Positions 12,095 to 63,543 of a DNA stretch of 64,000 nucleotides are shown here, piece after piece (position 1 is the stretch's first letter; the number at the start of each line of letters is the position of its first letter). The stretch lies in NCBI GenBank assembly GCA_034722245.1, contig JAYENT010000019.1, forward strand, positions 10,425 through 74,424, given 5' to 3'. The notes beneath the pieces are model-generated. The model made no database searches and was not told the origin of the DNA. It saw only the letters and a program-made list of their open reading frames with translations. The stretch comes from Chloroflexota bacterium (GTDB lineage Bacteria > Chloroflexota > Anaerolineae > UBA1429). The translations under genes were made by a program, and so were the position numbers.

Positions 12095-12132
12095 GACGCG
12101 TAGCCCCCACCCCCATAATCATCTCTCTTCCA

Positions 12133-12903
12133 TCAGTAATCATTGCCCAAGGCCATGATCTCCCGACACAGCGCGGCATAGGCCTTCCCCCCACTCGAGC
12201 AAGGTGCATAGCTGGATATCGGCTCTCCATAGCTTGGCGCCTCGCTGAGCCTCACGCTGCGCGGAATAATGGCCTCAAAAACGGCATTAGGAAACTGCTC
12301 CCGAACCTCCTCCACTACCTGACGAGACAGGTTAGTGCGCGCATCATACATAGTGAGGATCAGGCCGCGAACGATCAGATCGGGATTCAAGCTCTCGCGC
12401 ACCCGCTCAATGGTCTCCAGCAGTTGGGCCAGACCTTCTAAAGGGAGATACTCACATTGAACGGGGATCAGCACGCCGTCGGCCGCCACCAGCGCGTTTA
12501 CTGTCAGTATGCCCAGGCTGGGAGGCGTATCGACGAGAATGAAATCATACTGCGGCTCTATCTTCTGCAGCGCATCGCGCAGCCGGAACTCCCGCGCTGG
12601 CATATCGACCAACTCCACCTGGGCCCCCGCCAGGGACGGGGAAGAGGGAACAAGGTCCAGCCCAAAGCAGTTGGTCAGCGTGATGAGGCGCGAGATGGGC
12701 AAAGAATCTACAAAAAGATCATAGGACGAGCGCTCAAGGGAGCGCGTATCGACCCCCATGCTGGTGGTGGCATTGGCCTGGGGATCCACATCCACCAGTA
12801 AGACCCGTTTGCCCGCATTGGCCAGGTAGGCTCCAAGGTTCACGGCCGTGGTCGTTTTCCCGACCCCTCCCTTTTGGTTGGCCAGTGCATATATGCGGCT
12901 CAT
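12133..12903 (-). CDS. parA: Chromosome partitioning ATPase ParA/Soj
   Basis: Deviant Walker A KGGVGKTTT; start at ATG 12903 (MSRIYALANQKGG). Confidence 0.9.
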   Translation of the reverse strand: MSRIYALANQKGGVGKTTTAVNLGAYLANAGKRVLLVDVDPQANATTSMGVDTRSLERSSYDLFVDSLPISRLITLTNCFGLDLVPSSPSLAGAQVELVDMPAREFRLRDALQKIEPQYDFILVDTPPSLGILTVNALVAADGVLIPVQCEYLPLEGLAQLLETIERVRESLNPDLIVRGLILTMYDARTNLSRQVVEEVREQFPNAVFEAIIPRSVRLSEAPSYGEPISSYAPCSSGGKAYAALCREIMALGNDY

Positions 12904-12914
12904 ATCTCGGGATC

Positions 12915-13763
12915 CTATTCTCTCAGCCGGCCATGGCCCAGGCGCCACGCGATTTGTTCCCTTGAGGGCATGCCTCTAGCCCCAACGGTCTCGACGATGA
13001 ATGAAGCCGCAGCGTTGGCAAAACGGAGCGATTCCCGCACGTCCTGCGTCTCAAAGAAACGCACAAAATAGGCGGTCGCGAACACGTCCCCTGCGCCTGT
13101 CGAATCGACCTCCCTCACCTTGTAGGCGGGCATATGCACTACGTGCCCTCTATAGTACACGGTAGCGCCCTCTCGCCCCTGTGTCAAGACGAGATGATCC
13201 GTCTCAGATGCGTAGGGAGCCAGGCGCCGCGCATCGCCCTCCAGGTCCTCCAGGCTGAGCACCACCACATCCGCCACATGCAGGCCGCGCCTCGCCCCAT
13301 CCCACGCCGCATAAGAGACCAAACCATCCCCGTCCCAACGGCGTAGCCACCCCTGAAGCGTCAGGCCCAACAAGGAAGGCGAAAAGGCCTCCACGAGCCG
13401 CACGTCTACCTCTCGGGCTACAGGCCCCAGGTGGACGATAACCGCACGCTCCCAGGCCTCCGGCACATCCTCCCTTGCCAATGGAGTCGCCAGGGCCCGA
13501 ATGTACTGGCGGCGGCCCTGGGCCAAGTAAGTGTTCTCAAACGTCGTCGTCCGCTGTGCGGGCAAACGGTGCAAAGCGATAGAAGGTGCCCGCGCGAACA
13601 GAGGGTACTCTGGATCAGCGCTGGTGAGCACAGCGGTCTTGAGCCCAAGTCTGTGAGCCGTCAAGGCCGAATAGGTCGCTGTACCACCAGGCCGCAACGC
13701 GCCATCAGCCCCCACATCCCACGTGACGTGGCCTACAACCAAATACTCAGGAATCAGCAACAA
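12915..13763 (-). CDS. PfkB-family carbohydrate kinase
   Basis: DSTGAGDVFATAY C-terminal motif; ribokinase-like fold. Confidence 0.8.
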   Translation of the reverse strand: MLLIPEYLVVGHVTWDVGADGALRPGGTATYSALTAHRLGLKTAVLTSADPEYPLFARAPSIALHRLPAQRTTTFENTYLAQGRRQYIRALATPLAREDVPEAWERAVIVHLGPVAREVDVRLVEAFSPSLLGLTLQGWLRRWDGDGLVSYAAWDGARRGLHVADVVVLSLEDLEGDARRLAPYASETDHLVLTQGREGATVYYRGHVVHMPAYKVREVDSTGAGDVFATAYFVRFFETQDVRESLRFANAAASFIVETVGARGMPSREQIAWRLGHGRLRE

Positions 13764-13781
13764 GACAAAATCCCAGGCGCC

Positions 13782-14570
13782 CTACTTGGGGAATATCTGC
13801 ACCTTTCGGTCGTCGCCCTCTCCTGTACTCTCGGTATACACATCAGGGTCATTCCGCAGCGCGATGTGCACGATGCGGCGCTCATACGCAGGCATGGGTT
13901 CCAGCGTCGCGACCCGCCCCGTTTCGCGCACTTGGTCCGCCATGCGCTCGGCCAAAGCCTGCAGGCTTTCCTCGCGCCTGGCCTTGTAGCCATCGACATC
14001 CACAACCAGGTTAGGCCAGGTCTTGATCTCGCGATTGACGATGAGCCGCACCATGAATTGCAGGTCGCGAAGCGTCTCGCCGCGGCGCCCGATAAGGATA
14101 CCAAGCTCGTCGCCTACAACGTTCACGACCAAAGGCGAGACCTCGCCGGTTTCGGGATCAATCTCTCCGCCATGATCCACGACCTCGACCGCGGCCAGCA
14201 GCCCCATCTTGTCTATCAGATTGGTCAACACCTCACACGCGATATCCTCCAACTCTGGCGGATTTCGCTTCAAGGCTGGGGCGTAGGCCTCCTCCGCTTC
14301 TTCCACTCCAGTCTCCGCTTCGGGCTCGGCCTTCTCCTCTACAGCAACAGCCTGGCCTTCCTGCGCCTCTTCCGTAGGCTCCGCCCCGACTTTAACGGGT
14401 GGTGTTGAAACCCGAATGGCCACTTCACCCGTCTGAACTAGACCAAGGATGCTACGCGTGTTGTCCTTGATCACCTCGTAGTCAAGATCCTCGGGAGGCA
14501 CCCCAAGCTCGTAAGAGGCTTTCTTCAACGCCTCCTCAATTGTCTTTCCAGTATAATCGCTTTTCTGCAT
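13782..14570 (-). CDS. khpB: RNA-binding protein Jag/KhpB (Jag_N, KH, R3H)
   Basis: MQKSDYTGKTIEEALKKA... R3H GEGDDRKVQI; conserved position downstream of yidC. Confidence 0.85.
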   Translation of the reverse strand: MQKSDYTGKTIEEALKKASYELGVPPEDLDYEVIKDNTRSILGLVQTGEVAIRVSTPPVKVGAEPTEEAQEGQAVAVEEKAEPEAETGVEEAEEAYAPALKRNPPELEDIACEVLTNLIDKMGLLAAVEVVDHGGEIDPETGEVSPLVVNVVGDELGILIGRRGETLRDLQFMVRLIVNREIKTWPNLVVDVDGYKARREESLQALAERMADQVRETGRVATLEPMPAYERRIVHIALRNDPDVYTESTGEGDDRKVQIFPK

Positions 14571-14589
14571 TTTTCCCTTTTTCGTTCTA

Positions 14590-15441
14590 TCACGCCTCAT
14601 CTTCAGCATCGGGCATAGCCGGCCCTTCGATCTTTTCTATCACCCACTGCATAGCGATACCAACGATATTGGAGATGACGAAATAAATCGCCAATCCCGA
14701 CGCGAACTGCATGGTGAAATAGCCAAACATGAGAGGCATCATGAACTGCATCGTCTGATTCATGGACGCCTGTTGGGGATCCGAGGATGCTGGCGTCATC
14801 ATCTTTTGCTGAAGCCACATGGTCCCTGCAACCAGGACGGGCAACACAAAGGGCGTCGGGTCCGGCTTGGCCAGATCTAGCCACAAAAAGGTACTTTGCA
14901 GAGGCACGATCTTTGCGATAACGTCAAAGCTGGCATAGACGTTCTTGCCCAAATTCATCAGCTCCAAAGGTGTATCGGCCAGTATGCTGTTGATCGATTG
15001 ATACAGCGCAATCCAGATGGGGAACTGGATGAGAGTCGGAAGGCATCCCCCCAGAGGGTTCACCCCCGCCTCTTTGTACAGTTTCTGCTGCTCCTGCAAA
15101 AGCCTTTCCTTATCGCCGCCGTACTTTTCCTGCAGCTTGGACAACTTGGGCTGTAGTGCGGCCGTCTTTTTGCTCGTCCTGATCTGCCTGATCTGTAAGG
15201 GGAACGTGATTAAGCGCAGGCCAACCGTCAGGCCGGCGATGGCAACAACGAAACTCTCCCCCAGGTGAGCATAGAGAAACAATAGGAGGTTTAACATGGG
15301 ACGTATGAGCCCCTCGCGCCAGATAACTCCCCATCCAATCTGGAACCCCCCCAGGATCACCGCCCCAACGATAACCCATGTCAAGATGGATTTACGCAAT
15401 TGCTTGGCATCTATTTGCGGTCTGTTTGCTGCTCGTTGCAC
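14590..15441 (-). CDS. yidC: Membrane protein insertase YidC (short Gram-positive-type form)
   Basis: 60-kDa inner-membrane protein core (LPTLIQFPIWIALY, PLMFGYFT). Confidence 0.9.
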   Translation of the reverse strand: MQRAANRPQIDAKQLRKSILTWVIVGAVILGGFQIGWGVIWREGLIRPMLNLLLFLYAHLGESFVVAIAGLTVGLRLITFPLQIRQIRTSKKTAALQPKLSKLQEKYGGDKERLLQEQQKLYKEAGVNPLGGCLPTLIQFPIWIALYQSINSILADTPLELMNLGKNVYASFDVIAKIVPLQSTFLWLDLAKPDPTPFVLPVLVAGTMWLQQKMMTPASSDPQQASMNQTMQFMMPLMFGYFTMQFASGLAIYFVISNIVGIAMQWVIEKIEGPAMPDAEDEA

Positions 15442-20380: not shown

Positions 20381-21019
20381 AATCGCCCCCCCTTGTCCCG
20401 GCTCCCCCATCTCATTTTAAGCCCCATGTGCCGCCACGTCAATGGCTCCATCGCTGGTGATTACCCATAAGTCAAAGTCTCCTCAGGGAAGGAGTGATGG
20501 CTCGCGAAGGAGAGGGTAGCCGCGACAGCGAAGACACTGCCAATACCGGCCAGGAGGATGTAGGGCCCATCGCTATCCACGGGTAGGTCCAGTTTACCAC
20601 CCCCCAGACGGTGTAGCCATAGTACAGCCTGTGGAGGTCAAGTCTCGTCGGTATAATAGGCGAACAAAGCGGTCCCGAATTTCCTGTAAAAACGGCGACG
20701 TGAATCTAGTTCATTTGACTTGACACGGAGTATACGGACATTACCGTCCAAAAAGCCAGCTCACAATGCAACAGGGGTAACGATGTAGAAAATCGGAGGT
20801 GAAACGCCTCTGATGGGGTACCGGCAAGATCACAAATTCTACCAACACAACATGGAACCGAAACCCAATGGGGTCCCGGTCGCGCCCCTTTCGCTCCTAT
20901 AACGATGCACAAACCTGAGAAAACCTCGATCCTACCAGCAAGAGAATGCGGGTAGGAAAAGGGCTCCTACCCGCAAAACGTTCGATGCAAATATCGGGAT
21001 ATCGTTCTTCGCCAGATTT

Positions 21020-33860: not shown

Positions 33861-33882
33861 AAAGTGGAAGGAGAAGGCTCAC

Positions 33883-34662
33883 ATGCTGCTCTGCGTCGAT
33901 ATCGGTAATACGAACATCGTTATGGGCCTCTATGAGGGGAACAACCTCCTGAACCACTGGCGCGTAAGCACCGATCACAACAAAATGCCGGACGAATACG
34001 GTATGCTTTTTATCGACCTTTTGCGTCATGACGCCCTGGTCACCGAGGATATCGACGGCATCGTCCTGGCAAGCGTCGTTCCCCCTGTCACCGAGATATT
34101 TACAGAGATGTTGGAAAACTATGTGGGGGGGGAAATCCTCATCGTGGGCAGCGGCATCAGAACGGGCGTTGCCATACGCTATGACAACCCCCAGGAGGTG
34201 GGCGCCGATCGCGTCGTCAACGCCATAGCCACGTATCGCCACTACGGAGGGCCTGCATGTGTAATCGACTTTGGCACCGGTACCACCTTTGATGCCATCT
34301 CCACAAAGGGCGAATACCTGGGGGGTGCCATCGCCCCCGGTATTCGCATTGCCGCCGAGGCCCTTTTTCAGCGGACGGCCAAGCTGCCGCGCATTGATCT
34401 CATCCCTCCTGCAAAAACCATAGGCACCAATACAGCGGACTCGATGCGCTCCGGCATCCTCTACGGATATGTGGGGTTAGTGGAGGGCATGGTGGCACGG
34501 TTTCGACAGACGTTGGGGCCCGACATGCGCGTCATCGCCACGGGGGGATTTGCATCCATCATCGGCAGTGAGACGAAGGTGATCGAGCACGTCGATCCGT
34601 GGCTCACGCTCAAGGGCCTGCGCATCATCTACGACCTGAACAGGGAAAGAAAAAGAATATGA
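33883..34662 (+). CDS. coaX: Type III pantothenate kinase
   Basis: MLLCVDIGNTNIVMGL, DRVVNA, GTGTTFD. Confidence 0.9.
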   Translation: MLLCVDIGNTNIVMGLYEGNNLLNHWRVSTDHNKMPDEYGMLFIDLLRHDALVTEDIDGIVLASVVPPVTEIFTEMLENYVGGEILIVGSGIRTGVAIRYDNPQEVGADRVVNAIATYRHYGGPACVIDFGTGTTFDAISTKGEYLGGAIAPGIRIAAEALFQRTAKLPRIDLIPPAKTIGTNTADSMRSGILYGYVGLVEGMVARFRQTLGPDMRVIATGGFASIIGSETKVIEHVDPWLTLKGLRIIYDLNRERKRI

Positions 34663-40856: not shown

Positions 40857-40959
40857 AATGCCCTCCTGCCAGAACTCTTGTAAAAGATAGCACCCTCACT
40901 CGCTCTCCCTCATTGACACGCGAATCAAAACACTGTCCGATCAAATTGTCTAATAGCAT

Positions 40960-41166
40960 CTACCAACGACGATTCTCCATCTTGCGCGTCGTCTTGCGGC
41001 TCTTTCTCAGCTTCCTCGCCGCTCTCCGCTTACGCTCCTGCGAAGGCTTCTCATAGAAGCGACGACGCCGAACGGTGGAGAGTATTCTCTCGCGTTGAAC
41101 AGACTTGCGAAACCGCTTCAATAATCCTTCGATCGACTCACCATCTCGTCGAACAACACTTGCCAT
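40960..41166 (-). CDS. rpsU: 30S ribosomal protein S21
   Basis: Start ATG 41166 (RBS AAAGGAGGG). GLLKRFRK...RRRRFYEKPSQERKRRAARKLRKSRK. Confidence 0.85.
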   Translation of the reverse strand: MASVVRRDGESIEGLLKRFRKSVQRERILSTVRRRRFYEKPSQERKRRAARKLRKSRKTTRKMENRRW

Positions 41167-41504
41167 ACTAGCGGATCTTCCCTCCTTTCCAATGCCTCCA
41201 CTCTGTGCACTGACCAATACCACCTACACATAACCAATCCAGCCAGCTCTCAGAGTGCAATCACCCATCATCGCAGAAAAAGAGATAGCGATTGAGAGCT
41301 GACATCCTCTCTAAAATCGCCATCAGAAGCAAGAACCCACCACAGGTTCTACTATCAGATTCTTCTGCTCTCGCTCCTGATCTTACCCTACACTAAGGAG
41401 AGCACAAGACCGACTACGCCCTGCGCAAAACACGCACAAGAACGTGAAAAATAGTATAACAGTACGTGCCATATCATGCAAATCGAGAAACAGAGGGGGT
41501 GTCA

Positions 41505-54820: not shown

Positions 54821-54916
54821 CACAAAGGTTAGACGTTCGGATGCCAGGCACTTCTAAGTGCCTGGCATCGCTAGAACCCTTTCAGTAGATCCTGCATTAG
54901 TTTTTAGGAGGAATTC

Positions 54917-56311
54917 ATGATACGTACTGACATTGCCATCATCGGCGCCGGACCCGGCGGTTACGTCGCGGCCCTGCGGGCCGCCCAACTCGACGCAGAC
55001 GTCGTCTGCATTGAGAGAGATCGGGTGGGAGGAGTATGTCTGAACTGGGGCTGCATTCCCACCAAGAGCCTGCTGCGCAGCGCGGAGATCTATGCGCTGG
55101 CCAAAGAGGCGGAGACATACGGTGTCGTCGTGGGGGAACCAAAGGTCGATTGGCAAAAGATGCAGGAGCGCAAAGCGCGAAACGTGGATCAGCTCGTGAA
55201 CGGCACCAAGATGCTGCTGGATCGCGCGGGGGTGAACGTCGTCAAGGGCAAGGCCTCCTTTGCCAGAGCCCACGTGCTGCGGGTGCAGTCGGACGAGGGT
55301 GATGAGACTGTGGAAGCGGATAACATCATCATTGCCACGGGCTCGCGCCCCCTGCGCATACCGATCCCCGGGCTGGACGATCCGCGCGTGGTCGATTCCA
55401 AGGGGGCACTATCCCTGGATCCCCTGCCGGAGAGTATCTGCATCATCGGCGGTGGGGCCATCGGCATCGAGTTCGCAAGCCTCTTTAATACCCTGGAGGT
55501 GGAGGTGACCCTGGTGGAGATGCTGCCCCACCTGGCGCCCCTTATGGACACCTCCATCGGCGAGGGACTGGCCTGGACCTTTGGGCAAAAGGGCATCCAG
55601 GTGCTGACCGACACGCGGGTGACCAGCCTGGAGAACACTGACGGGGGGCTGGTGGTGCATATGGAAGGCCCCGACGGCGAGGAGCGTGTGGAGGTTGAGC
55701 GTGTGCTGTCCGCTGTGGGGCGCGCGCCCAACGCGGAGGGCTTGGGCCTGGAAGTGCTGGGGATCAATCCCACACGCCAGGGAATCGAGGTGGATGATCG
55801 CATGCGCACAGCAGTCCCCGGCGTCTATGCCATCGGCGATGTGGCGGCAGAAGGCCCCATGCTGGCCCATGTGGCCTCCCACCAGGGCATCGTGGCGGTG
55901 GAGGATGCCATGGGACGGCCCGCGGCCATGGACTATACCGCCGTGCCAAGCTGCATCTTTTCCATGCCCGAGGCGGCCAGCGTAGGGCTCTCAGAGGAGG
56001 AGGCCCGAGAGCAGGGATACGAGGTGAAAGTGGGCACCTTTGCGTTGGCGAACAATGGCAAGGCTGTCACCATGGGCGAGACCGACGGCTTTGTCAAGTT
56101 TGTCGCTGAGGCGCAATACGGCGCCGTTCTAGGGGTACACATTGTAGGCCCCCACGCGAGCGACCTTATCCTGGAGAATGCCCTGGGCATCAACCTAGAG
56201 ACCACCCTAGACGAGATAGAGGACACCATCCATCCCCATCCTACCCTGGGCGAGGCTATCGCTGAGGCGGCCCTGGCCGTCCGCGACCGCGCCCTGCACG
56301 TGCCGGGCTAG
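54917..56311 (+). CDS. lpdA: Dihydrolipoyl dehydrogenase (E3)
   Basis: FAD site GAGPGGY; redox disulfide GGVCLNWGCIPTK; C-terminal His-Pro-x-x-x-Glu dimerisation motif (HPHPTLGEA). Confidence 0.9.
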   Translation: MIRTDIAIIGAGPGGYVAALRAAQLDADVVCIERDRVGGVCLNWGCIPTKSLLRSAEIYALAKEAETYGVVVGEPKVDWQKMQERKARNVDQLVNGTKMLLDRAGVNVVKGKASFARAHVLRVQSDEGDETVEADNIIIATGSRPLRIPIPGLDDPRVVDSKGALSLDPLPESICIIGGGAIGIEFASLFNTLEVEVTLVEMLPHLAPLMDTSIGEGLAWTFGQKGIQVLTDTRVTSLENTDGGLVVHMEGPDGEERVEVERVLSAVGRAPNAEGLGLEVLGINPTRQGIEVDDRMRTAVPGVYAIGDVAAEGPMLAHVASHQGIVAVEDAMGRPAAMDYTAVPSCIFSMPEAASVGLSEEEAREQGYEVKVGTFALANNGKAVTMGETDGFVKFVAEAQYGAVLGVHIVGPHASDLILENALGINLETTLDEIEDTIHPHPTLGEAIAEAALAVRDRALHVPG

Positions 56312-56349
56312 ATGCACCCTTTTTGAGGGCGAGCGGTATTCCTCAGTCC

Positions 56350-56655
56350 CATATAAAGCGGAATACACTTTGTGTATTCCCCATCCGTCCAACTCGGAAT
56401 AGTGCTCCAACCTACGATTGCCATGCCGTTCCCCGTGTCAAAGGTGTGGAGAATTGCGCGGCAATTCTCCGAGGGAATAGGCTACGCCTTTAGGGACTTT
56501 CACATATAAAGCGGAATACACTTTGTGTATTCCCCATCCGCCCAACTCGGAATAGTGCTCCAACCTACGATTGCCATGCCGTTCCCCGTGTCAAAGGTGT
56601 GGAGAATTGCGCAGCAATTCTCCGAGGGAATAGGCGTAGCCTATTCCCCCTTCGC
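56350..56655. repeat. Two head-to-tail copies of a 153-bp palindrome-dense unit (copy 1 56350-56502, copy 2 56503-56655)
   Basis: About 134 bp are shared with 2 mismatches. Each unit contains GGAATACAC-ttt-GTGTATTCC and GGAGAATTGC-gcN-GCAATTCTCC perfect hairpins. Copy 2 adds GGAATAGGC-gta-GCCTATTCC. Confidence 0.8.
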
Positions 56656-56719
56656 CTTCCACGCCCACTTGTGCTATCATGATTATGTAGCACCACGCCG
56701 AGAAGGGGGAATGTTCCTG

Positions 56720-58069
56720 ATGAACAGCAAACTAGGCTTCCACATCCAACGACGCCGACAAGGCTGGCCCAACGCCGTGGCCGACGCTCTGCCGGCCATG
56801 GTCAAGAGCCTGGAATGGCGCATCATCGACGATTGGGTGGCGGAGGAACAGACGGATGTGCAAAAGAAGGCGCGGGCCGGCAAATGGCAGGCGTATCACG
56901 TCTTTTTAGTGGGCCGCCATGTGACGCCCATCCAGCCCCTTGACCACCCACAAGCGTGCGCTCGCGCTTTTTGGAAAGGGATGCTGGAGGAGATGACGGC
57001 AGGAGACCACAGCAAGGAGGCCGAAACCCTGGAACGCCTGCGCCTTTTTGATGCCTGGGAGGGCTATAACGAGATCGGGACGGGCCCCGACATCGCCAAG
57101 TTGGGCCGCTTTGACGCCGCCCTGGCCCACTGCTTCCACGACAACGGCCTCAAGTATGCCTGTGGTGGCTTCAGCGTCACCAACCCCACCTTGGAGGAGT
57201 GGCCCCGATACTATGATGCCCTGCTGGAGGCAGCGGCGACCCAGGACGGCGAGATGCCCGACTTTTTGCACCTGCACGAATACTGGTACCCAGACCGCGA
57301 CTGGGATTCCCTGCTGAACGCGGAGGGCAAGATCGATCGTCGGCGGATGCGCAAGGCCACGCGGGGCTACATGTTGCATTGGCGCGAACTGTACCAGGAA
57401 CCGAACACGCCGGAGGAGATCAAGCTGCCCGTCATCATCTCTGAATGCGGTTGGGATCGAGGGGCGCCTCAGCAGGTAGGCTTTCGCGCTTCCCGTCGCT
57501 CCGATTTGGATTACCTTAGATGGTTGTTCTGGTACGATCAGGAACTCCAGACACCCCTGGATGGCAAGGACTATGTAGTGGGCGCGGCCATCTTTACCTA
57601 CGGCCATGCAAACCGCTGGGCCTCCTTCGAAATCGACCGCATGGAGGGGCATGACATCTTGGGCCCCCTGCGCGCCTACATGCGCGAAAGCAACCTCTTG
57701 CCGCACCCCCGGGACTGGGAGGAATTGCAGGAACCCGAGCCGGAGGTGCAAGAGACCCACTATCTGCTTCTGCCCCAGAAGAGCAGCCTCGCCTGGCGCC
57801 ACGCCCTGGATCGCTATCTTGACACCTTCAAAGTGACCAACGGACAATCGCTGGACGACGCCGTCCGCCTGGCGGCCCCAGAGCATCACATCACCCTGGT
57901 CGGAAGCGCCGACAGCGAACGGGGCGTGCCCCAGAACTGGGAAAAGGAGATCCATCGCCGCAACCCCGACGCCCTCGTGGATCGTATGGAAGCCCACAAC
58001 GTCAGAGAACTGCGCCGCATCGCCACGACCCGCGCCAAAAGGGGCGATCGCTATGGGGAACGAGAATAG
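56720..58069 (+). CDS. Cytoplasmic clan GH-A-like (beta/alpha)8 glycoside hydrolase with an unknown ~120-aa C-terminal domain
   Basis: Start at ATG 56720 (RBS GAAGGGGG; extended -10 TGCTATCAT at about 56671). The portion of track ORF 56525 upstream of this translates the repeat and is an artefact. Acid/base-like WEGYNEIG and nucleophile-like VIISECGWD motifs sit about 140 aa apart. Confidence 0.45.
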   Translation: MNSKLGFHIQRRRQGWPNAVADALPAMVKSLEWRIIDDWVAEEQTDVQKKARAGKWQAYHVFLVGRHVTPIQPLDHPQACARAFWKGMLEEMTAGDHSKEAETLERLRLFDAWEGYNEIGTGPDIAKLGRFDAALAHCFHDNGLKYACGGFSVTNPTLEEWPRYYDALLEAAATQDGEMPDFLHLHEYWYPDRDWDSLLNAEGKIDRRRMRKATRGYMLHWRELYQEPNTPEEIKLPVIISECGWDRGAPQQVGFRASRRSDLDYLRWLFWYDQELQTPLDGKDYVVGAAIFTYGHANRWASFEIDRMEGHDILGPLRAYMRESNLLPHPRDWEELQEPEPEVQETHYLLLPQKSSLAWRHALDRYLDTFKVTNGQSLDDAVRLAAPEHHITLVGSADSERGVPQNWEKEIHRRNPDALVDRMEAHNVRELRRIATTRAKRGDRYGERE

Positions 58070-58097: not shown

Positions 58098-58823
58098 ATG
58101 AGCAACGCGCCCAACACCTGGTGGCGATGGTGGCCCCTAGGATTGATAATCGTGGTGGTAGTAGCCATAGTCGTGGCCTTACTATCAAAAAGCCCAAAGG
58201 GCCACCCTCCGGAATCCAGGGGCGATAGGGAGATCGTTCTTCCCATGCCCCGGCGTGAAAGCGATGTCTCGGTGGAGGAGGCCCTGCAACAGCGGCGTTC
58301 CATCCGCGACTATGCCGAGGCTCCCCTCACTATTGTGGAGGTGGGGCAGCTTCTGTGGGCCGCGCAGGGCATCACCGACGAACGAGGCTACCACACGGCG
58401 CCCTCAGCGGGGGCCCTCTATCCCTTGGAACTCTATGTCGTGGTGGGCAAGGTGGAGACGTTGGCCCCAGGCGTCTATCACTACGACTCCCACAACCACG
58501 CGTTGGAGCGCGTGGCCGACGGCGATCGGCGTCAAGCGCTGGCGAGAGAGGCCCTGGAGCAAGATTGTGTACGCCAAGGCGCCATCGACATCGTCTTCAC
58601 CGCCGTCTATGAACGCACCACGGCCAAGTACGGCCAGCGAGGAAGGCAGTACGTGCACATGGAGGCCGGTCATGCTGCCCAGAACGTCTATCTACAATGT
58701 GTGCCGTTGAAGTTGGGGGCCGTCGTTGTGGGGGCATTTCAGGACAAGGGCGTGCAAGACGTCTTAGAGTTGCCAGAGGAGCGCATTCCGCTCTATATTA
58801 TGCCCGTGGGCAAGCTGCCCTGA
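58098..58823 (+). CDS. Membrane-anchored nitroreductase-family protein (SagB-type dehydrogenase domain)
   Basis: N-terminal TM (WWRWWPLGLIIVVVVAIVVALL), then the nitroreductase fold (RRSIRDY ... GHAAQNVYL). Confidence 0.7.
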   Translation: MSNAPNTWWRWWPLGLIIVVVVAIVVALLSKSPKGHPPESRGDREIVLPMPRRESDVSVEEALQQRRSIRDYAEAPLTIVEVGQLLWAAQGITDERGYHTAPSAGALYPLELYVVVGKVETLAPGVYHYDSHNHALERVADGDRRQALAREALEQDCVRQGAIDIVFTAVYERTTAKYGQRGRQYVHMEAGHAAQNVYLQCVPLKLGAVVVGAFQDKGVQDVLELPEERIPLYIMPVGKLP

Positions 58824-58879
58824 ACGGAATACTTCTCCAGCCGCACACACGGGCGTCAACGCCCGTGCTACATAGTCAC

Positions 58880-58900
58880 GTCCCATGAATGGGACTTTTT
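58880..58900 (+). terminator. Intrinsic terminator after the nitroreductase gene
   Basis: GTCCCA-tgaa-TGGGAC followed by TTTTT; preceded by a second GC hairpin CACGGGCG-tcaa-CGCCCGTG (58848-58867). Confidence 0.5.
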
Positions 58901-59082
58901 CGCACACGTATACGGTCGGGTGATACGATAATACCCCAAGACCTCAAAAGCCCGCTTGAGCGGGCGCAACTATGTAGCGCTGTGGCTTTAGCCCGGCGCG
59001 GCCGGACGGCCAAGTTAACGCATATGCGTTACGAAGGATACATCATACATTTGTATGTCAACACTGTAAGGAGCCTTTGCAG

Positions 59083-61401
59083 ATGTCCGGAAATCTCGTC
59101 ATCGTAGAATCGCCAGCGAAGGCCAAGACCATATCCAAATACCTGGGCAGAGGATACCGCGTGCTGGCCTCGGTGGGACACGTGCGCGATCTGCCACCCA
59201 AGGAACTGGGCGTGGACATTGCGAACGGCTTTGCCCCCACATACCAAGTATCCAAGGGCAAAGGGGAGGTGATTCGTAAGCTAAAGGAGGCCGTCGGGGA
59301 GAGCGATCTGGTCTATCTGGCCATGGACCCCGACCGAGAGGGCGAGGCCATCGCCTGGCACGTGGGCGAGGTTACGGGCCTGACAGAGGGCAAGACGCGG
59401 CGCATCGCCTTCTACCAGGTGACCAAGAGGGCCGTCCAAGAGGCCCTGAAAAATCCCCGAGGCTTGGACCGCGACCTGATCGACGCCCAGCAGAGCCGCC
59501 GCGTGCTGGACCGCCTGGTAGGCTACAAGATCAGCCCCATCCTGAGCAGAACCATGCGCAAGCCGTTGTCCGCCGGCCGCGTGCAGTCCGTGGCTTTGCG
59601 CCTGGTGGTGGAGCGGGAGCGCGAGATCGAGGCCTTTGTACCCGAGGAATATTGGACGCTGGAGGCAGAGTTGCAGCGCCGCACCCAGAAGAAGGAGCGC
59701 TTCAAAGCCCATCTGCTCCGCATAAAGGGCGAGAAGCCACACCTGGGCAGCAAGGAGGAGATGGACGAGATACTGCCGGTCCTGTCCAAGGCCACCTATA
59801 CAGTAACCAAGGTGAAAAAGGGACAGCGCAGGCGAAATCCCTATGCCCCGTTCATCACCAGCACCCTGCAGACCGAGGCCTCGCACAGGCTGCACTTCTC
59901 CCCACAGCGGACCATGCGCCTGGCCCAGCAGTTGTACGAGGGCATCGAACTGGGCGAAGGGGCTGATGCTGAAACGGTTGGGCTCATCACCTATATGCGC
60001 ACCGACTCGCCCCACGTGGCCCCCGAGGCCCAGGAGGAGGCCCGGCGCTACATCTCCAAGCGGTGGGGAGAGGAATATCTGCCCAGCAGCCCGCCAGCCT
60101 ATCGCTCCACGTCCTCCTCCGCCCAGGAGGCCCACGAGGCCATTCGCCCTACCTCGGTATTCCGGACACCGAAAACTGTGCGCAAGCACCTGAACCGCAG
60201 CCAGGCGCGGCTCTACGAGCTCATCTGGAGGCGTTTCCTGGCCAGCCAGATGCAGCCCGCCCTCTATGCCACCATGAGCGTGGACATCGTGGCCGCCAAG
60301 GATTACCTATTCCGGGCCACGGGACGCCGCCTCATCTTCCCCGGCTTCCTCGCCGTTTATAAGGAGGGAAAAAGCGAGAAGGACAGCCAGTTCCTGCCTC
60401 CCCTCGAAAAAGGCGAGGTGGTAGACCTGCACAAACTCCTCCCAGAGCAGCACTTTACCCAGCCGCCCCCTCGCTACAGCGAGTCCACGCTCATCAAAGC
60501 CCTCAAGGGCAAAGGCGTGGGGCGCCCCTCCACCTATGCCAGCATCATCAGCGTGATCCAGCGTCGGCGCTACGTGACCAAGGAGGACGGCAGGCTCAAG
60601 CCCACCGACCTGGGCATAACGGTGTGCGACGCCTTGGTGGCAGCCTTTTCCAACATCATGGAGGTGGAGTACACGGCCAGGATGGAGGAGCAGTTGGACC
60701 ACGTGGCCGAGGGCAAGGTGGGCTATGAGGCGATGCTCAGCGCCTTTTACGGCGATTTGGAGCCCAAACTTGGCGCGGCTCCAGACATCATGGACGAGGC
60801 CATACAGCGATCCCTCAAGGCCAACCTCCCCGAATCGCTGCGCAACCGCAACTGTCCCCTATGCGGAAAGCCCCTCGTCGTGCGTGTCAGCAAGATGGGG
60901 CGCTTTTTGGGCTGCACGGGCTACCCCGAATGCCGCTACACCCTGGATATCAGCGATCCCGAGAATCCCCAAGAGACCGAGGACGAATTCGTCGAGGGGG
61001 AGAGATGTCCAAAATGCGGCGGGCGCATGAAAATCGTGCACTATGGTAACCGAACCTTTTTGGGATGCGAGAACTACCCAAAGTGCAAATACACGCGCCC
61101 CATCCTTAGCGAGCGCATCAAAAATCTGGCCGCCGAGACCGCCTGTCCCAAGTGTGGCCGCAAGCCCATGGAGCCCCGCAAGGGACGCTATGGCGAGTAC
61201 CTCTACTGCCCCGACTGCGAGGAGAACTTTTCTCTGCGCAAGCTGGGCCTAGACAAGGTAGAAAAGGTGGACATCCCCTGCCCGAAATGCGGCCACAGTC
61301 CCCTGGAAAAGCGCACCGGGCGCTACGGGCCCTACTACCACTGCCCGGCCTGCAAGGCCAACACCTCGGAGAAAGAGATGGCCCGTATTCGTGGGGAATA
61401 A
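59083..61401 (+). CDS. topA: DNA topoisomerase I with C-terminal C4 zinc-ribbon repeats
   Basis: ATG 59083 with RBS AAGGAG at 9 nt. Toprim (LVIVESPAKAKTI, DPDREGE); active-site region; three or four CxxC...CxxC zinc ribbons at the C-terminus. Confidence 0.9.
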   Translation: MSGNLVIVESPAKAKTISKYLGRGYRVLASVGHVRDLPPKELGVDIANGFAPTYQVSKGKGEVIRKLKEAVGESDLVYLAMDPDREGEAIAWHVGEVTGLTEGKTRRIAFYQVTKRAVQEALKNPRGLDRDLIDAQQSRRVLDRLVGYKISPILSRTMRKPLSAGRVQSVALRLVVEREREIEAFVPEEYWTLEAELQRRTQKKERFKAHLLRIKGEKPHLGSKEEMDEILPVLSKATYTVTKVKKGQRRRNPYAPFITSTLQTEASHRLHFSPQRTMRLAQQLYEGIELGEGADAETVGLITYMRTDSPHVAPEAQEEARRYISKRWGEEYLPSSPPAYRSTSSSAQEAHEAIRPTSVFRTPKTVRKHLNRSQARLYELIWRRFLASQMQPALYATMSVDIVAAKDYLFRATGRRLIFPGFLAVYKEGKSEKDSQFLPPLEKGEVVDLHKLLPEQHFTQPPPRYSESTLIKALKGKGVGRPSTYASIISVIQRRRYVTKEDGRLKPTDLGITVCDALVAAFSNIMEVEYTARMEEQLDHVAEGKVGYEAMLSAFYGDLEPKLGAAPDIMDEAIQRSLKANLPESLRNRNCPLCGKPLVVRVSKMGRFLGCTGYPECRYTLDISDPENPQETEDEFVEGERCPKCGGRMKIVHYGNRTFLGCENYPKCKYTRPILSERIKNLAAETACPKCGRKPMEPRKGRYGEYLYCPDCEENFSLRKLGLDKVEKVDIPCPKCGHSPLEKRTGRYGPYYHCPACKANTSEKEMARIRGE

Positions 61402-61403
61402 GC

Positions 61404-61852
61404 CGTCGCACCGCCCTAAAGAGGCGGTGCTGGGGGGATCCACTAGAGAAACCGCGAAGCAGTTCTCGGATCCCCTCGGAGAATTGCACAGCGATTCTGC
61501 CAAGGGATATGCATCGCATATCGCTCAACCAGCCCCACCTGTTCACGGTGGGGCAAAGGCCCAGCCTCCAACACCTGCGAATCGAATTCGCAGGCTGTTA
61601 CTGTTGGAAACTTGCTAAAGACAGGTGGGGAAAATGCTACGAATTTTCCCTGGCAGAATTGTGAGCGATTCTGCATCCTATCCAAAAGTTGCGACTACTC
61701 ACGTCGCAATTCTGATACGCGCTAGCCTGTTTCCAACAGGCTTGTTGTGATGGACGTGGATTTCAATCCTCGGCGCAGGGCGAGGGTCAACGTCTACATC
61801 TGGAATCTGGAAGATCGCGGCGTCGCATCGCCCTAAAGAGGCGGTGCTGGGG
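61404..61852. repeat. 32-bp direct repeats (61404-61435 and 61821-61852, 31/32 identical, each with a CACCGCC/GGCGGTG hairpin) flanking a 384-bp hairpin-dense non-coding segment
   Basis: CGTCGCA(C/T)CGCCCTAAAGAGGCGGTGCTGGGG appears twice, 417 bp apart. The interior carries at least 6 perfect 7-9-bp stem-loops and degenerate copies of the GAGAATTGC...GCAATTCTC motif. Confidence 0.6.
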
Positions 61853-61941
61853 AGTTGCTCTGCAATTCTTCACCCTCCTTGCCCGACGAGAACGCCTCTC
61901 TCCTACATGTGGGAGAGGGATTGGGGAGAGGGCAAACGAGT

Positions 61942-63543
61942 TCAACTCCTAAGCAGATGCCGTCCCGGGCGGGCGCCCGTGTGCTCGCTATCCTCCACCA
62001 CGGGCACGCCGTTCACCAGCACGTGTTCCACGCCTCGCACGTAGGCCTCGGGTTCTTCCACCGTAGAGACCTCTTCTAGGTTCTCATAGTCAAAGACTAC
62101 CACGTCGGCGAACTGGCCCCGGCGCAGCAGACCGCGATCACGCAGGCCAAAGTGAGTGGCGGGCATGCTCGTCATCTTGCGAATGGTCTCCTCCAGTCGC
62201 AAGATGCCCTTCTCGCGGACATAGTGGGTCAAATAGTGGGTCATTCCCGCAAAGTGTATGGGATGGGCACAGGGGATGGAGAAGAACGGGTCGGTGGTGC
62301 TGGTAAAGCCATCCACCCCCAGGTTAAAGAGGGGATGGGAGGCCATGGAAGCCAACAACTCTTCCGATTTGAGGTCGCCGATGACAAAGAGGGCGTCCAT
62401 GGCCTCGCCGTGGGCGGCCAGGATGTCGAAGCAGCATTCCCACTCGTCCTGGCCCCATTTCTCCGCGATCTCGGGGAAGCTCATGCCCACCAGTTCGGGG
62501 AAGAGGGAACTCTTACCCATGCGTACTCGGTGCCACTCGCCGCGATGAATGAAACGCCAGTAGCGGTCGCAGTCGGTGCGCAGCCGCTCCCGCACCTCGG
62601 GATCTTTGAGCATTTCTGCTGCCCGGGCCGGTCCCTCGGATTTGACCCAGGGAGGCAGGATGCCCGCTAGCTGACCGATGCCATCGGGAAAGGGGGTGGT
62701 GTCGGCCATGACGTCCAACCCCTCTTCCTCGCGGCTCCGCACCACCGTCTCCACGGCCCGCTCCCAGGCTCCCTCGGGCGCGCCCGAATTGTAGCGCACG
62801 TTCAAGTGCGATACCTCTCCCACTGTGCCACTTTGGCGCACGATGTGCAGGAACTCCTCGATGGCCTCTTGTAGATGGGCGTCCCGGTTGCGGATGTGGC
62901 TGGCATAAAGTCCGTCGTATTCTCCTACCACCTTGGCCAATGTCACCACCTCCTCGGTGGGCGCCGTGCGCCCCGGCTCGAATTCGAGCCCCGTGGATAT
63001 GCCCAGGGCGCCAGCGTCCATGGCCTCACGAAGGGAGCGCTTCATGGCCTCCATCTGCTCCTCCGTGGCCGAGGGGCCGATGATCCCCGCGCTCTCGCGC
63101 AGCGTGTTATGGCCCACCAGCCAGGCCAGGTTGCAGGAGGTGCCCATCTCCTCCACCACGTCCAGGTACTCCCCAAAGGAGGACCAGTCCACGGGACCAT
63201 CGTAGGAATAGTCGCGCAGCTTGCTCGCGATGGTGGACCGGGACGATTCCGTGAGGGGGGCGTTGCTGTAGCCGCAGTTGCCCACCACCTCGCTGGTCAC
63301 GCCCTGACGGATGGTGCTCTGGGCCAGGGGGTTGGCGTGGATGGACCAGTCGCTGTGGCTGTGGGCGTCGATAAAGCCTGGGGAGACGATCTTGCCTTGG
63401 GCGTCGATGACACGCGCCGCCTCGGCCCCCTCCAACCGTCCCACCTCGGCGATGCGCTCGCCCTCGATGGCCACGTCCGCCGGATAGGCCGGATTCCCCG
63501 TGCCATCGATCACCCAACCGTCGCGAATCAATACGTCCAACAT
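61942..63543 (-). CDS. N-acyl-D-amino-acid deacylase (D-aminoacylase) family amidohydrolase
   Basis: MLDVLIRDGWVIDGTG...; metal-binding HSH (GFIDAHSHSD). Confidence 0.85.
   Translation of the reverse strand: MLDVLIRDGWVIDGTGNPAYPADVAIEGERIAEVGRLEGAEAARVIDAQGKIVSPGFIDAHSHSDWSIHANPLAQSTIRQGVTSEVVGNCGYSNAPLTESSRSTIASKLRDYSYDGPVDWSSFGEYLDVVEEMGTSCNLAWLVGHNTLRESAGIIGPSATEEQMEAMKRSLREAMDAGALGISTGLEFEPGRTAPTEEVVTLAKVVGEYDGLYASHIRNRDAHLQEAIEEFLHIVRQSGTVGEVSHLNVRYNSGAPEGAWERAVETVVRSREEEGLDVMADTTPFPDGIGQLAGILPPWVKSEGPARAAEMLKDPEVRERLRTDCDRYWRFIHRGEWHRVRMGKSSLFPELVGMSFPEIAEKWGQDEWECCFDILAAHGEAMDALFVIGDLKSEELLASMASHPLFNLGVDGFTSTTDPFFSIPCAHPIHFAGMTHYLTHYVREKGILRLEETIRKMTSMPATHFGLRDRGLLRRGQFADVVVFDYENLEEVSTVEEPEAYVRGVEHVLVNGVPVVEDSEHTGARPGRHLLRS

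What the first reader, a model, noticed from the sequence alone, without database searches (positions are those of the whole stretch)
56350..56655. Tandem 153-bp palindrome-dense repeat between lpdA and a GH-like gene
Two head-to-tail copies (56350-56502 and 56503-56655) share about 134 bp with only 2 substitutions, so this is a recent duplication or a conserved element. Every unit packs three different perfect inverted repeats: GGAATACAC-ttt-GTGTATTCC at 56360-56380, GGAGAATTGC-gcg-GCAATTCTCC at 56445-56467 (copy 2: 56598-56620), and in copy 2 GGAATAGGC-gta-GCCTATTCC. Each unit also carries three GGAATA(G) direct motifs. The array sits just upstream of an extended -10 promoter (TGCTATCAT, about 56671) and the true start (56720) of the downstream hydrolase. 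The ORF-track protein 56525.. translates the repeat and is an artefact. Candidate explanations: a tandem pair of small structured RNA genes; a tandem cis-regulatory RNA or riboswitch-like leader; or a duplicated operator array for one or more palindrome-binding regulators. None is an annotated element type I can name.
Basis: seen in the sequence. Interest (0 to 1): 0.7.

Follow-up and report, generated by a model that had tools for sequence, protein, structure and literature searches.

The report
Duplicated cluster of short DNA palindromes
The 306-bp feature is a real, fairly recent tandem duplication of a spacer built from short perfect palindromes that recur in neighbouring gene spacers of a few related uncultured Anaerolineae bacteria, most like the "REP" extragenic palindromes of other bacteria rather than a new RNA gene or switch.

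Summary
There are 1.9 head-to-tail copies of a 153-bp unit at 56350-56655. The copies share 133 bp with 2 substitutions. Five perfect 9-10-bp hairpins with 3-nt loops lie inside.

The 153-bp unit occurs nowhere else that I could search. Its hairpins, however, belong to a small family (GGGGRATAKGC-N3-GCMTATYCCCC and GGAGAATTGC-N3-GCAATTCTCC). The family recurs in another spacer of the window (61478-61525, 61626-61674). It also recurs downstream of lpdA in two relatives and over the topA stop codon in a third.

- Arms change in a compensatory way and loops flip (GTA/TAC).
- Spacer lengths differ greatly between close relatives (408 vs 648 vs 246 nt). More distant relatives lack the hairpins.
- No Rfam family matches, no strand-specific G.U signal appears, no U-tails follow the stems on the + strand, and the window holds no transposase.

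Best reading (about 0.55): a lineage-specific REP/BIME-like palindrome cluster that was locally duplicated with one breakpoint inside a hairpin. It is probably transcribed as the lpdA 3' region.

It lacks the GTAG/CGTC tag of classical REPs. Genome-wide copy number could not be tested, and every member seen lies within about 5 kb of topA. The sRNA, riboswitch and operator readings are not favoured. Interest is modest.

The parts
56350..56502 (.). Copy 1 of the 153-bp unit: H1, a 67-nt linker, H2, a truncated H3 and the junction
   Evidence: TRF; the repeat finder D1; blastn 133 nt at 98.5%
56503..56655 (.). Copy 2 of the 153-bp unit: H1, linker, H2 and a complete H3. It is contiguous with the conserved promoter block.
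56360..56380 (.). H1 palindrome GGAATACAC-ttt-GTGTATTCC (copy 1). The second copy is at 56513-56533.
   Evidence: RNA hairpin -11.2 kcal/mol; scores as a family member with model R1 (31.4 bits)
56448..56470 (.). H2 palindrome GGAGAATTGC-gcg-GCAATTCTCC (copy 1). The second copy, at 56601-56623, has loop gca.
   Evidence: -14.9 kcal/mol
56473..56489 (.). Truncated H3 of copy 1: GGGAATAGGC-TAC-GCCT. The loop is inverted relative to copy 2 and the right arm is cut off.
   Evidence: 17-nt perfect complement to 56632-56648 (I5)
56490..56499 (.). Junction filler TTAGGGACTT between the copies, with no counterpart in either flank
   Evidence: read directly; outside the register of D1
56626..56648 (.). 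H3 palindrome GGGAATAGGC-gta-GCCTATTCCC. It abuts the conserved promoter block and is positionally orthologous to hairpins in L006 (813-835) and L016 (8277-8303).
   Evidence: -16.7 kcal/mol
56334..56342 (.). Solo right-arm-like half element CGGTATTCC upstream of copy 1. It can pair with the left arm of H1.
56647..56688 (+). Conserved block CCCCTTCGCCTTCCA...TGCTATCAT (extended -10-like box at 56672-56680), the likely promoter of the downstream genes
   Evidence: 86% over 42 nt to L006; three-genome alignment; TATCAT/TATTAT box also present in 65%-identity orthologues; not called by the consensus scan because the -35 is poor
56702..56722 (+). RBS GAAGGGGG and the ATG (56720) of the GH-like gene. 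56702-56712 is an 11-nt perfect complement of 56643-56653.
   Evidence: (I7)
54917..56311 (+). Upstream gene: dihydrolipoyl dehydrogenase-like (lpdA). No canonical terminator follows it.
   Evidence: Pfam; terminator scan
56720..58069 (+). Downstream gene: 449-aa orphan protein with a clan GH-A-like TIM-barrel fold
61478..61525 (.). Second H2-H3 module in the window: GGAGAATTGC-aca-GCGATTCTGC caa GGGATATGC-atc-GCATATCGC. It lies in the spacer between convergent topA and a D-aminoacylase gene.
   Evidence: confirmed in an independent Logan assembly L019
61626..61674 (.). Further family members: GGGGAAAAT-gctacga-ATTTTCCC (61626-61652) and the H2-like GCAGAATTG-tgag-CGATTCTGC (61653-61674)
   Evidence: model R1 hit, E=1.7e-4, not in the training set

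Best explanation
The array is a local tandem duplication inside a fast-evolving intergenic spacer. The spacer is built from a lineage-specific family of short (21-27 bp) extragenic palindromes, functionally analogous to REP/BIME elements.

Shown:
- The family has two stem types: GGGGRATAKGC-N3-GCMTATYCCCC (H1/H3 type) and GGAGAATTGC-N3-GCAATTCTCC (H2 type).
- An H2-H3 pair recurs as a module.
- Members sit at non-homologous spacers in four related Anaerolineae genomes.
- Arms co-vary and loops occur in both orientations.
- Spacers gain and lose modules between close relatives.

Inferred:
- The ancestral state downstream of lpdA was a single H3 hairpin directly in front of the promoter of the next operon, as in L016.
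- H2, and then H1 plus the linker, were added in the window/L006 lineage.
- A 153-bp segment was then duplicated, with one breakpoint inside H3. This was probably a replication template switch at the hairpin, which would explain the inverted loop, the truncated arm and the 10-nt filler.

Likely mode of action (inferred): lpdA has no U-tailed terminator, so its transcript runs into the array. The stable hairpins (-11 to -17 kcal/mol each) would then act as 3'-end barriers or stabilisers and insulate the downstream promoter, as proposed for REPs. The duplication itself probably adds little function.
For: - Family recurrence. The pattern GGAGAATN9ATTCTSCN5RATAKGC hits 56448, 56601 and 61478 in the window (0.00 expected) and L006 788. 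The identical H3 sequence GGGGGAATAGGC-tac-GCCTATTCCCCC sits over the topA stop codon in L018.
- L016 has GGGGGATATGC-gta-GCATATCCCCC 38 nt after lpdA, followed by the same promoter block, although the downstream gene differs.
- Covariance model R1 finds members outside its training set at window 61626 and L006 614.
- Across 7 hairpins, 86.9% of cells are paired and 8 of 12 pairs change on both sides. 0/500 shuffles reach this, and slid controls give 35-54% paired.
- Spacer turnover. lpdA-downstream spacer: 408 nt (window), 648 nt (L006), 246 nt (L016). Nitroreductase-topA spacer: 253 nt vs 48 nt. topA-downstream spacer: 540 nt vs 51 nt.
- Only about 90-115 promoter-proximal nt align between the window and L006.
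- Another module moved between spacers: L006 509-554 matches window 58948-58993 (85%, E=5e-4).
- The family is absent from 43 kb of relatives at 65-77% protein identity, and their orthologous spacers are short.
- Location fits REPs, which lie downstream of ORFs, between unidirectional and convergent genes, in clusters, and sometimes overlapping gene ends (PMC3733652).
- Template switching at quasipalindromes is an established mutational route (PMC7202029).
Against: - Genome-wide abundance is not shown. Every member seen lies within about 5 kb of topA, and there are none in window 1-56000.
- No GTAG or CGTC end tag.
- No Y1/RAYT or any other transposase in the window.
- H1 plus the linker have no second locus.
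- Collection scans found only chance hits: genome contigs with H1, metagenome contigs with the H2-H3 pattern, viral contigs.
- H3 keeps its exact position against the promoter in three genomes, which would also fit a promoter-linked role.
- No expression data. The RNA-level function is inferred by analogy only, and stems are almost purely Watson-Crick with no strand-biased G.U.
Confidence: 0.55

Rival explanations
1. DNA-level promoter element. The palindromes, above all H3 abutting the -35 region, are binding sites for a dimeric regulator or supercoiling-responsive cruciforms. They would tune the conserved promoter, which in L016-L018 heads an operon ending in topA. On this reading the duplication doubles the upstream sites.
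For: - H3 keeps the same position directly upstream of CTTCGCCT..TGCTATYAT in the window, L006 and L016.
- All arms are near-perfect Watson-Crick with no G.U bias.
- All family members lie near topA.
- Methyltransferase, nitroreductase and topA are tightly packed behind this promoter in L016.
Against: - Arm sequence is not conserved at the orthologous site (GGAATAGGC vs CGATATGC vs GGGGGATATGC). It changes on both arms, which is unusual for an operator.
- The same palindromes occur where there is no promoter: between convergent genes (61478-61674) and across the topA stop next to a convergent Fic gene in L018.
- No regulator gene is adjacent.
- Arms of 9-10 bp are short for cruciform extrusion (general knowledge).
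- In the window a U-tailed terminator-like hairpin (58880-58895) separates the nitroreductase gene from topA.
Confidence: 0.12
2. Tandem small-RNA genes or a structured cis-acting RNA. Each 153-nt unit would encode an RNA with a 5' hairpin (H1), a single-stranded linker and a 3' double hairpin (H2-H3), like tandem sRNA paralogues.
For: - A TATAAA -10-like box lies 3 nt upstream of H1 in both copies.
- The region folds much better than shuffles, z=-6.1.
- Both substitutions between the copies fall in unpaired positions.
Against: - No Rfam match even at E<=10.
- The minus strand folds equally well, z=-6.5.
- No -35, no promoter call, and no U-tail after H3 on the + strand.
- H1 and the linker are absent from the closest relatives L006 and L016; the best local alignment is no better than shuffles.
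- No strand bias in G.U.
- With 48 of 133 nt in stems, two substitutions avoiding stems is expected 41% of the time.
Confidence: 0.1
3. The whole 153-bp unit is a miniature mobile element, PATE- or MITE-like with subterminal hairpins, that inserted twice side by side.
For: - Hairpins lie near both ends of the unit (H1 at the left, H2/H3 at the right).
- The junction is not a clean duplication: there is a 10-nt filler and an inverted loop.
- Hairpin-ended, TIR-less elements of IS200/IS605 type exist (PMC6006769).
Against: - No third copy in the window, in 24 kb of close relatives, or in plasmid, phage and viral collections.
- H2-H3 of copy 2 is orthologous to L006's H2-H3 and is therefore ancestral at this site, not newly inserted.
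- No terminal inverted repeats and no target duplication.
- No transposase in the window.
Confidence: 0.08
4. Assembly artefact. The two copies would be strain variants or a mis-joined repeat in a short-read MAG.
For: - The source is a metagenome-assembled genome.
- The copies differ by only 2 SNPs.
- The repeat (133 bp) is longer than typical k-mers.
Against: - The junction sequence (truncated H3, TTAGGGACTT, then the unit start) is unique and must be present in reads.
- An independent Logan assembly breaks exactly about 30 nt into the unit, as expected for a sequence with two upstream contexts.
- Other hairpin modules are reproduced with 3 mismatches in 2696 nt in a second run.
Confidence: 0.05

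Closest known systems
REP elements and their clusters (BIMEs), as catalogued by Di Nocera et al. 2013 (PMC3733652)
   Same: - Palindromic units of 20-40 bp, with 9-12-bp stems and 3-nt loops.
- Extragenic position downstream of ORFs, between unidirectional and convergent genes, and sometimes overlapping the gene end.
- Clustered and mosaic with other motifs.
- Sub-families that differ by complementary stem changes.
- Presence and number vary sharply between close relatives.
   Different: - No GTAG or CGTC tag outside the stem.
- No head-to-head or tail-to-tail dimers of one unit.
- No RAYT found.
- High genome-wide copy number not demonstrated: about 10 members, all near topA.
- Stems almost free of G.T pairs.
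REPINs (Bertels & Rainey 2011, PMC3116915)
   Same: Two hairpin-forming units occur together as a recurring doublet (the H2-H3 module) at several loci.
   Different: H2 and H3 are two different palindromes lying side by side. They are not two inverted copies of one REP that form a larger hairpin, and no RAYT partner is known.
Tandem sRNA paralogues (e.g. PrrF1/PrrF2, OmrA/OmrB; from general knowledge)
   Same: Two nearly identical units of about 150 nt lie head to tail in a spacer, each with terminal hairpins.
   Different: No recognisable promoter or terminator, no conservation of the unit in close relatives, and no Rfam family.
Quasipalindrome template-switch products (PMC7202029)
   Same: Perfect palindromes with inverted loops and a duplication breakpoint inside a hairpin are the expected footprints of intramolecular template switching.
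   Different: That literature describes point-scale mutations in E. coli reporters. Here the mechanism is only inferred from the junction anatomy.

Membership tests
REP (GTAG / CGTC super-families) | Short (20-40 bp) palindromic stem-loop unit; stem 5-13 bp, loop 2-20 nt | tested here: met
   H1, H2 and H3 are 21-23 bp with 9-10 (up to 12) bp stems and 3-nt loops
REP (GTAG / CGTC super-families) | Conserved GTAG or CGTC tetranucleotide at one end, outside the stem | tested here: not met
   Flanks are aagc/ccat (H1), gtgt/gagg (H2) and gag/ccc (H3). GTAG occurs only across the H3 loop. A GTAGG follows the L018 copy but is shared with L017, which lacks the hairpin.
REP (GTAG / CGTC super-families) | Extragenic, mostly downstream of ORFs, between unidirectional or convergent genes, often clustered | tested here: met
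REP (GTAG / CGTC super-families) | Many copies dispersed around the genome | tested here: inconclusive
   About 10 members in 88 kb of four genomes, but all within about 5 kb of topA and none in window 1-56000. Collection scans gave only chance hits.
REP (GTAG / CGTC super-families) | Associated RAYT (Y1 HUH transposase) flanked by the repeats | tested here: inconclusive
   No Y1_Tnp or other transposase among about 58 window ORFs. The rest of the genome was not available.
REPIN | Two copies of one REP in inverted orientation forming a long hairpin | tested here: not met
   H2 and H3 are different palindromes, each self-complementary
MITE | Terminal inverted repeats and a target-site duplication; multiple full-length copies | tested here: not met
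   No TIR or TSD at the unit ends. No further full-length copy.
Known structured RNA (Rfam 15) | Covariance-model match at or near the gathering score | tested here: not met
   0 matches at gathering for the window and relatives. Only miRNA noise at E 0.13-0.84. Nothing in 58800-62000.
Intrinsic (Rho-independent) terminator | G+C-rich stem followed by a U-tract on the transcribed strand | tested here: not met
   No + strand call in the array. Only H1 on the minus strand has a weak T-rich tail. Canonical U-tailed terminators do exist in this genome (47386-47359, 58880-58895).
Transcription-factor operator array | Half-site sequence conserved at orthologous promoters; sites confined to promoter regions | tested here: not met
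   The arms differ between the window, L006 and L016 with changes on both arms. Copies occur between convergent genes and over a stop codon.

The most novel reading that the evidence does not exclude
The palindromes are not selfish or passive. On this reading they form a local, self-propagating set of hairpins tied to the topA neighbourhood. The conserved H3 hairpin abutting the promoter of the operon that ends in topA, together with the hairpin clusters flanking topA, would act as supercoiling-sensitive cruciform or hairpin elements for homeostatic control of topoisomerase I. New palindromes would be born in situ by fold-back copying of adjacent sequence, as at the topA stop codon in L018. 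There the left arm is the conserved coding end GGG-GAA-TAG and only the right arm is new.
Probability: 0.07. Interest if true: 0.6.

Novelty: new variant of a known kind. Interest (0 to 1): 0.3.

Why it matters
If the reading is right, it adds an untagged REP-like palindrome family in uncultured Anaerolineae (Chloroflexota), a group in which such repeats are barely described. It also gives a clean example of how hairpin clusters grow: modules are gained between close relatives, loops invert, and a tandem duplication has a breakpoint inside a hairpin.

Practical consequences:
- The array explains the spurious N-terminal extension of the downstream ORF.
- It explains why short-read assemblies break here.

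It does not open a new mechanism unless the clustering around topA turns out to be functional.

Tried and rejected
- Rfam at gathering score and at E<=10 on the array, on the other hairpin spacers and on relatives: nothing.
- Genome-contig scan with the H1 pattern: 4 chance palindromes in unrelated taxa. The source genome is evidently not in that collection.
- Metagenome-contig scan with a family-level H2-H3 pattern that matches all four known modules: 4 hits, all in coding sequence and not hairpin pairs.
- Viral-contig scans with H3 and H2: 0 hits.
- blastn of the whole spacer against plasmids and phages: no match.
- Window self-blastn: no further copy of the unit.
- Looking up the downstream protein by exact sequence, for either start: not on record.
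- Local alignment of H1 plus linker against the L006 and L016 spacers: no better than shuffles.
- Strand test by G.U vs A.C mismatches in 22 hairpins: 5 vs 3, uninformative.
- Pfam on about 58 window ORFs looking for a RAYT, another transposase or an adjacent regulator: none.
- Small ORFs inside the array (56323-56493 and 56207-56410 on the minus strand): no family.
- Simple-duplication model of the junction: rejected, because the loop is inverted and 10 nt have no source.

Full report
OBSERVATION

The tandem repeat is real.
- Tandem Repeats Finder reports 56350-56635, period 153, 1.9 copies, 98% matches.
- The repeat finder puts the copies at 56347-56489 and 56500-56642.
- blastn gives 133 nt with 2 substitutions, E=7e-66.

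Each unit carries two perfect palindromes with 3-nt loops:
- H1: GGAATACAC-ttt-GTGTATTCC at 56360-80 and 56513-33.
- H2: GGAGAATTGC-gcg/gca-GCAATTCTCC at 56448-70 and 56601-23.

Copy 2 ends in a third palindrome, H3: GGGAATAGGC-gta-GCCTATTCCC at 56626-48. Copy 1 has only GGGAATAGGC-TAC-GCCT. Its loop is the reverse complement of copy 2's, the right arm is truncated, and 10 nt (TTAGGGACTT) with no source in either flank follow it. The junction is therefore not a clean unequal-crossover product.

Two enrichments support the observation.
- Perfect hairpins of at least 8 bp are three times more frequent in the window than in shuffles (26 vs 8 +/- 3). Five of the 26 lie in this 306-bp stretch.
- GGAATA is locally enriched: 10 of the window's 35 sites fall here.

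An independent Logan assembly of another run is identical through lpdA and stops about 30 nt into the unit. That is what a k=31 graph does when a sequence has two upstream contexts.

CONTEXT

The source is an uncultured Chloroflexota (Anaerolineae-like) MAG. Gene order on the + strand is:
- pfkB kinase, NAD-kinase-like and lpdA-like (54917-56311);
- the 408-nt spacer holding the array;
- a 449-aa gene (56720-58069), nitroreductase and topA (59077-61401).

A convergent D-aminoacylase gene follows.

The 449-aa protein has no Pfam, NCBIfam or PDB sequence match. Its AlphaFold model (pLDDT 90) matches clan GH-A TIM barrels (GH39, GH164, GH128, PslG, GH5). N117-E118 and E242 are invariant in 29 homologues. 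"GH-like" is therefore right.

Homologues start at M-x-SKLGFH. The 56720 start is correct and ORF 56525.. is an artefact.

The box TGCTATCAT (56672-80) lies in a block, CCCCTTCGCCTTCCA...TGCTATYAT, that is conserved in relatives.

COMPARATIVE EVIDENCE

L006 (closest relative; 82% identity for the GH-like protein).
- Its lpdA-to-GH spacer is 648 nt, with no tandem repeat but many hairpins.
- Only the promoter-proximal 90-115 nt align with the window.
- Within that stretch H2 and H3 are present at the same positions but with different arms. H2 is GGAGAATGG-ctacc-CCATTCTCC. H3 is CGATATGC-tac-GCATATCG.
- H1 and the linker have no detectable counterpart.

L016, L017 and L018 (three relatives with 87-88% topA identity).
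- A methyltransferase gene replaces the GH-like gene.
- The L016 spacer is 246 nt. It holds a single hairpin, GGGGGATATGC-gta-GCATATCCCCC, 38 nt after lpdA, directly followed by the same promoter block.
- In L018 the exact H3 sequence of the window (GGGGGAATAGGC-tac-GCCTATTCCCCC) lies over the topA stop codon, next to a convergent Fic gene.
- L017 and the window keep only the left arm there, since it is coding (Gly-Glu-stop).

Within the window.
- A third H2-H3 module sits at 61478-61525, inside a 540-nt hairpin-dense spacer between convergent genes. Further H2-like (61653-74) and H3-like (61626-52) members lie nearby.
- A second Logan assembly reproduces this region.
- The orthologous spacers are 48-51 nt in relatives, against 253 and 540 nt here.
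- L017 already has the two copies of the GCACCGCC...GGCGGTGC hairpin about 70 nt apart. In the window these copies are 417 nt apart and bracket the inserted modules.
- One further module moved between spacers: L006 509-554 matches window 58948-58993.

More distant relatives (65-77% protein identity) have short spacers and no family member in 43 kb.

FAMILY STATISTICS

Seven H1/H3-type hairpins were aligned on their loops (A1).
- 86.9% of cells are paired.
- 8 of 12 pairs change on both sides.
- 0/500 shuffles reach this, and slid controls give 35-54% paired.

A covariance model built from them found two members outside the training set (window 61626, L006 614). It found nothing in the first 56 kb of the window. 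Stems are almost purely Watson-Crick (211 of 228 pairs). G.U pairs number 5 on the + strand and 3 on the minus strand, so nothing points to RNA-level selection on one strand.

WHAT IT IS

The 153-bp unit as a whole is locus-specific, but it is assembled from members of a small repeated palindrome family. This family:
- behaves like REP/BIME elements in size, position, clustering, complementary sub-families and rapid turnover between relatives (PMC3733652);
- lacks their GTAG/CGTC tag;
- has no transposase in reach.

The duplication is younger than the split from L006, which has no repeat. It is not brand new either: copy divergence is 1.5%, against about 0.1% between the two sequencing runs.

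The inverted loop, the truncated arm and the filler fit a replication template switch at the H3 hairpin. That is an established route for palindrome-associated mutation (PMC7202029). Here it is an inference.

HOW IT PROBABLY WORKS

lpdA has no U-tailed terminator, although such terminators exist in this genome. lpdA transcripts should therefore enter the array.

Five or six hairpins of -11 to -17 kcal/mol would act as 3'-end barriers or stabilisers. They would also separate lpdA transcription from the conserved promoter. These are the roles proposed for REPs (PMC3733652). This step is inferred; no expression data were available.

An 11-nt perfect complement links the H3 right flank (56643-53) to the RBS of the GH-like gene (56702-12). 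It could silence translation on read-through transcripts, but it is not clearly conserved in L006.

RIVALS

- A promoter-linked DNA element (operator or supercoiling-sensitive cruciform). For: H3 holds a fixed position against the promoter in three genomes, and all members lie near topA. Against: the arm sequences are not conserved, and copies occur where there is no promoter.
- Tandem sRNA genes or a leader RNA. Against: no promoter or terminator, no Rfam family, no conservation of H1 and the linker, and equally good folding of both strands.
- A twice-inserted miniature mobile element. Against: copy 2's H2-H3 is orthologous to L006's, and no third copy exists.
- Assembly artefact. Unlikely, given the unique junction and the Logan break point.

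LIMITS

Genome-wide copy number and the presence of a RAYT therefore remain untested. The evidence for dispersal rests on about 10 members in four genomes, all in the lpdA-topA neighbourhood.

VERDICT

- Observation: confirmed.
- Classification: a new variant of a known kind, namely REP-like extragenic palindromes locally duplicated.
- Interest: modest (0.3).

Noticed in passing
window 56720-58069: The 449-aa protein belongs to an orphan family of about 36 homologues, all from Chloroflexota-type metagenomes. It has no Pfam, NCBIfam or PDB sequence hit. A confident model (pLDDT 90) matches clan GH-A TIM barrels (GH39, GH164, GH128, PslG, GH5) at 9-15% identity. N117-E118 and E242 are invariant. 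An extra C-terminal alpha/beta domain of about 100 aa follows. It is possibly an undescribed glycoside hydrolase family.
   Followed up: partly
window 61402-61941: A 540-nt spacer between convergent topA and D-aminoacylase genes is packed with at least 8 hairpins. It is bracketed by a 32-nt direct repeat (61404-61435 and 61821-61852, 97% identical) of a terminator-like hairpin. In L017 the same two hairpin copies are only about 70 nt apart, and in L018 the spacer is 51 nt.
   Followed up: partly
window 58948-58993; L006 509-554: A 46-nt module (GCCCG-loop-CGGGCGCAACT..TGTAGCG.TGTGGCTTTAGCC) is 85% identical between the nitroreductase-topA spacer of the window and the lpdA-GH spacer of L006. 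The same module thus sits in different spacers in two relatives. It has no Rfam match.
   Followed up: partly
L018 3873-3899; L017 3931-3943; window 61393-61403: The topA stop codon lies inside the left arm of the H3-type palindrome (GGG-GAA-TAG-GC). Only L018 has the complementary right arm. More distant TopA proteins continue past the ...GE motif (e.g. GETS, GEGGGD). The palindrome may therefore have truncated the C-terminus, or it may have been created from it.
   Followed up: partly
window 56643-56653 and 56702-56712: An 11-nt perfect complement links the right flank of H3 (ATTCCCCCTTC) to the ribosome-binding region of the GH-like gene (GAAGGGGGAAT). It could mask the RBS on read-through transcripts. 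It is only weakly mirrored in L006.
   Followed up: no
L016 8239-9204 vs window 56312-58069: The same conserved promoter block downstream of lpdA heads different first genes. In the window and L006 it is the GH-like gene. In L016, L017 and L018 it is a 239-aa methyltransferase. In both cases nitroreductase and topA follow.
   Followed up: partly
window 54840-54869: A 14-bp perfect palindrome (GATGCCAGGCACTT-ct-AAGTGCCTGGCATC) lies between the NAD-kinase-like gene and lpdA. It has no U-tail and is unrelated in sequence to the H family.
   Followed up: no
window 11219-15441 and 12949-13430: parB, parA and yidC lie together, with a 482-nt ORF-free gap next to parA. This is possibly the chromosomal origin region. 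Other large ORF-free gaps (20411-21019, 33861-34598, 40857-41465) have no Rfam hit and no hairpin enrichment.
   Followed up: no
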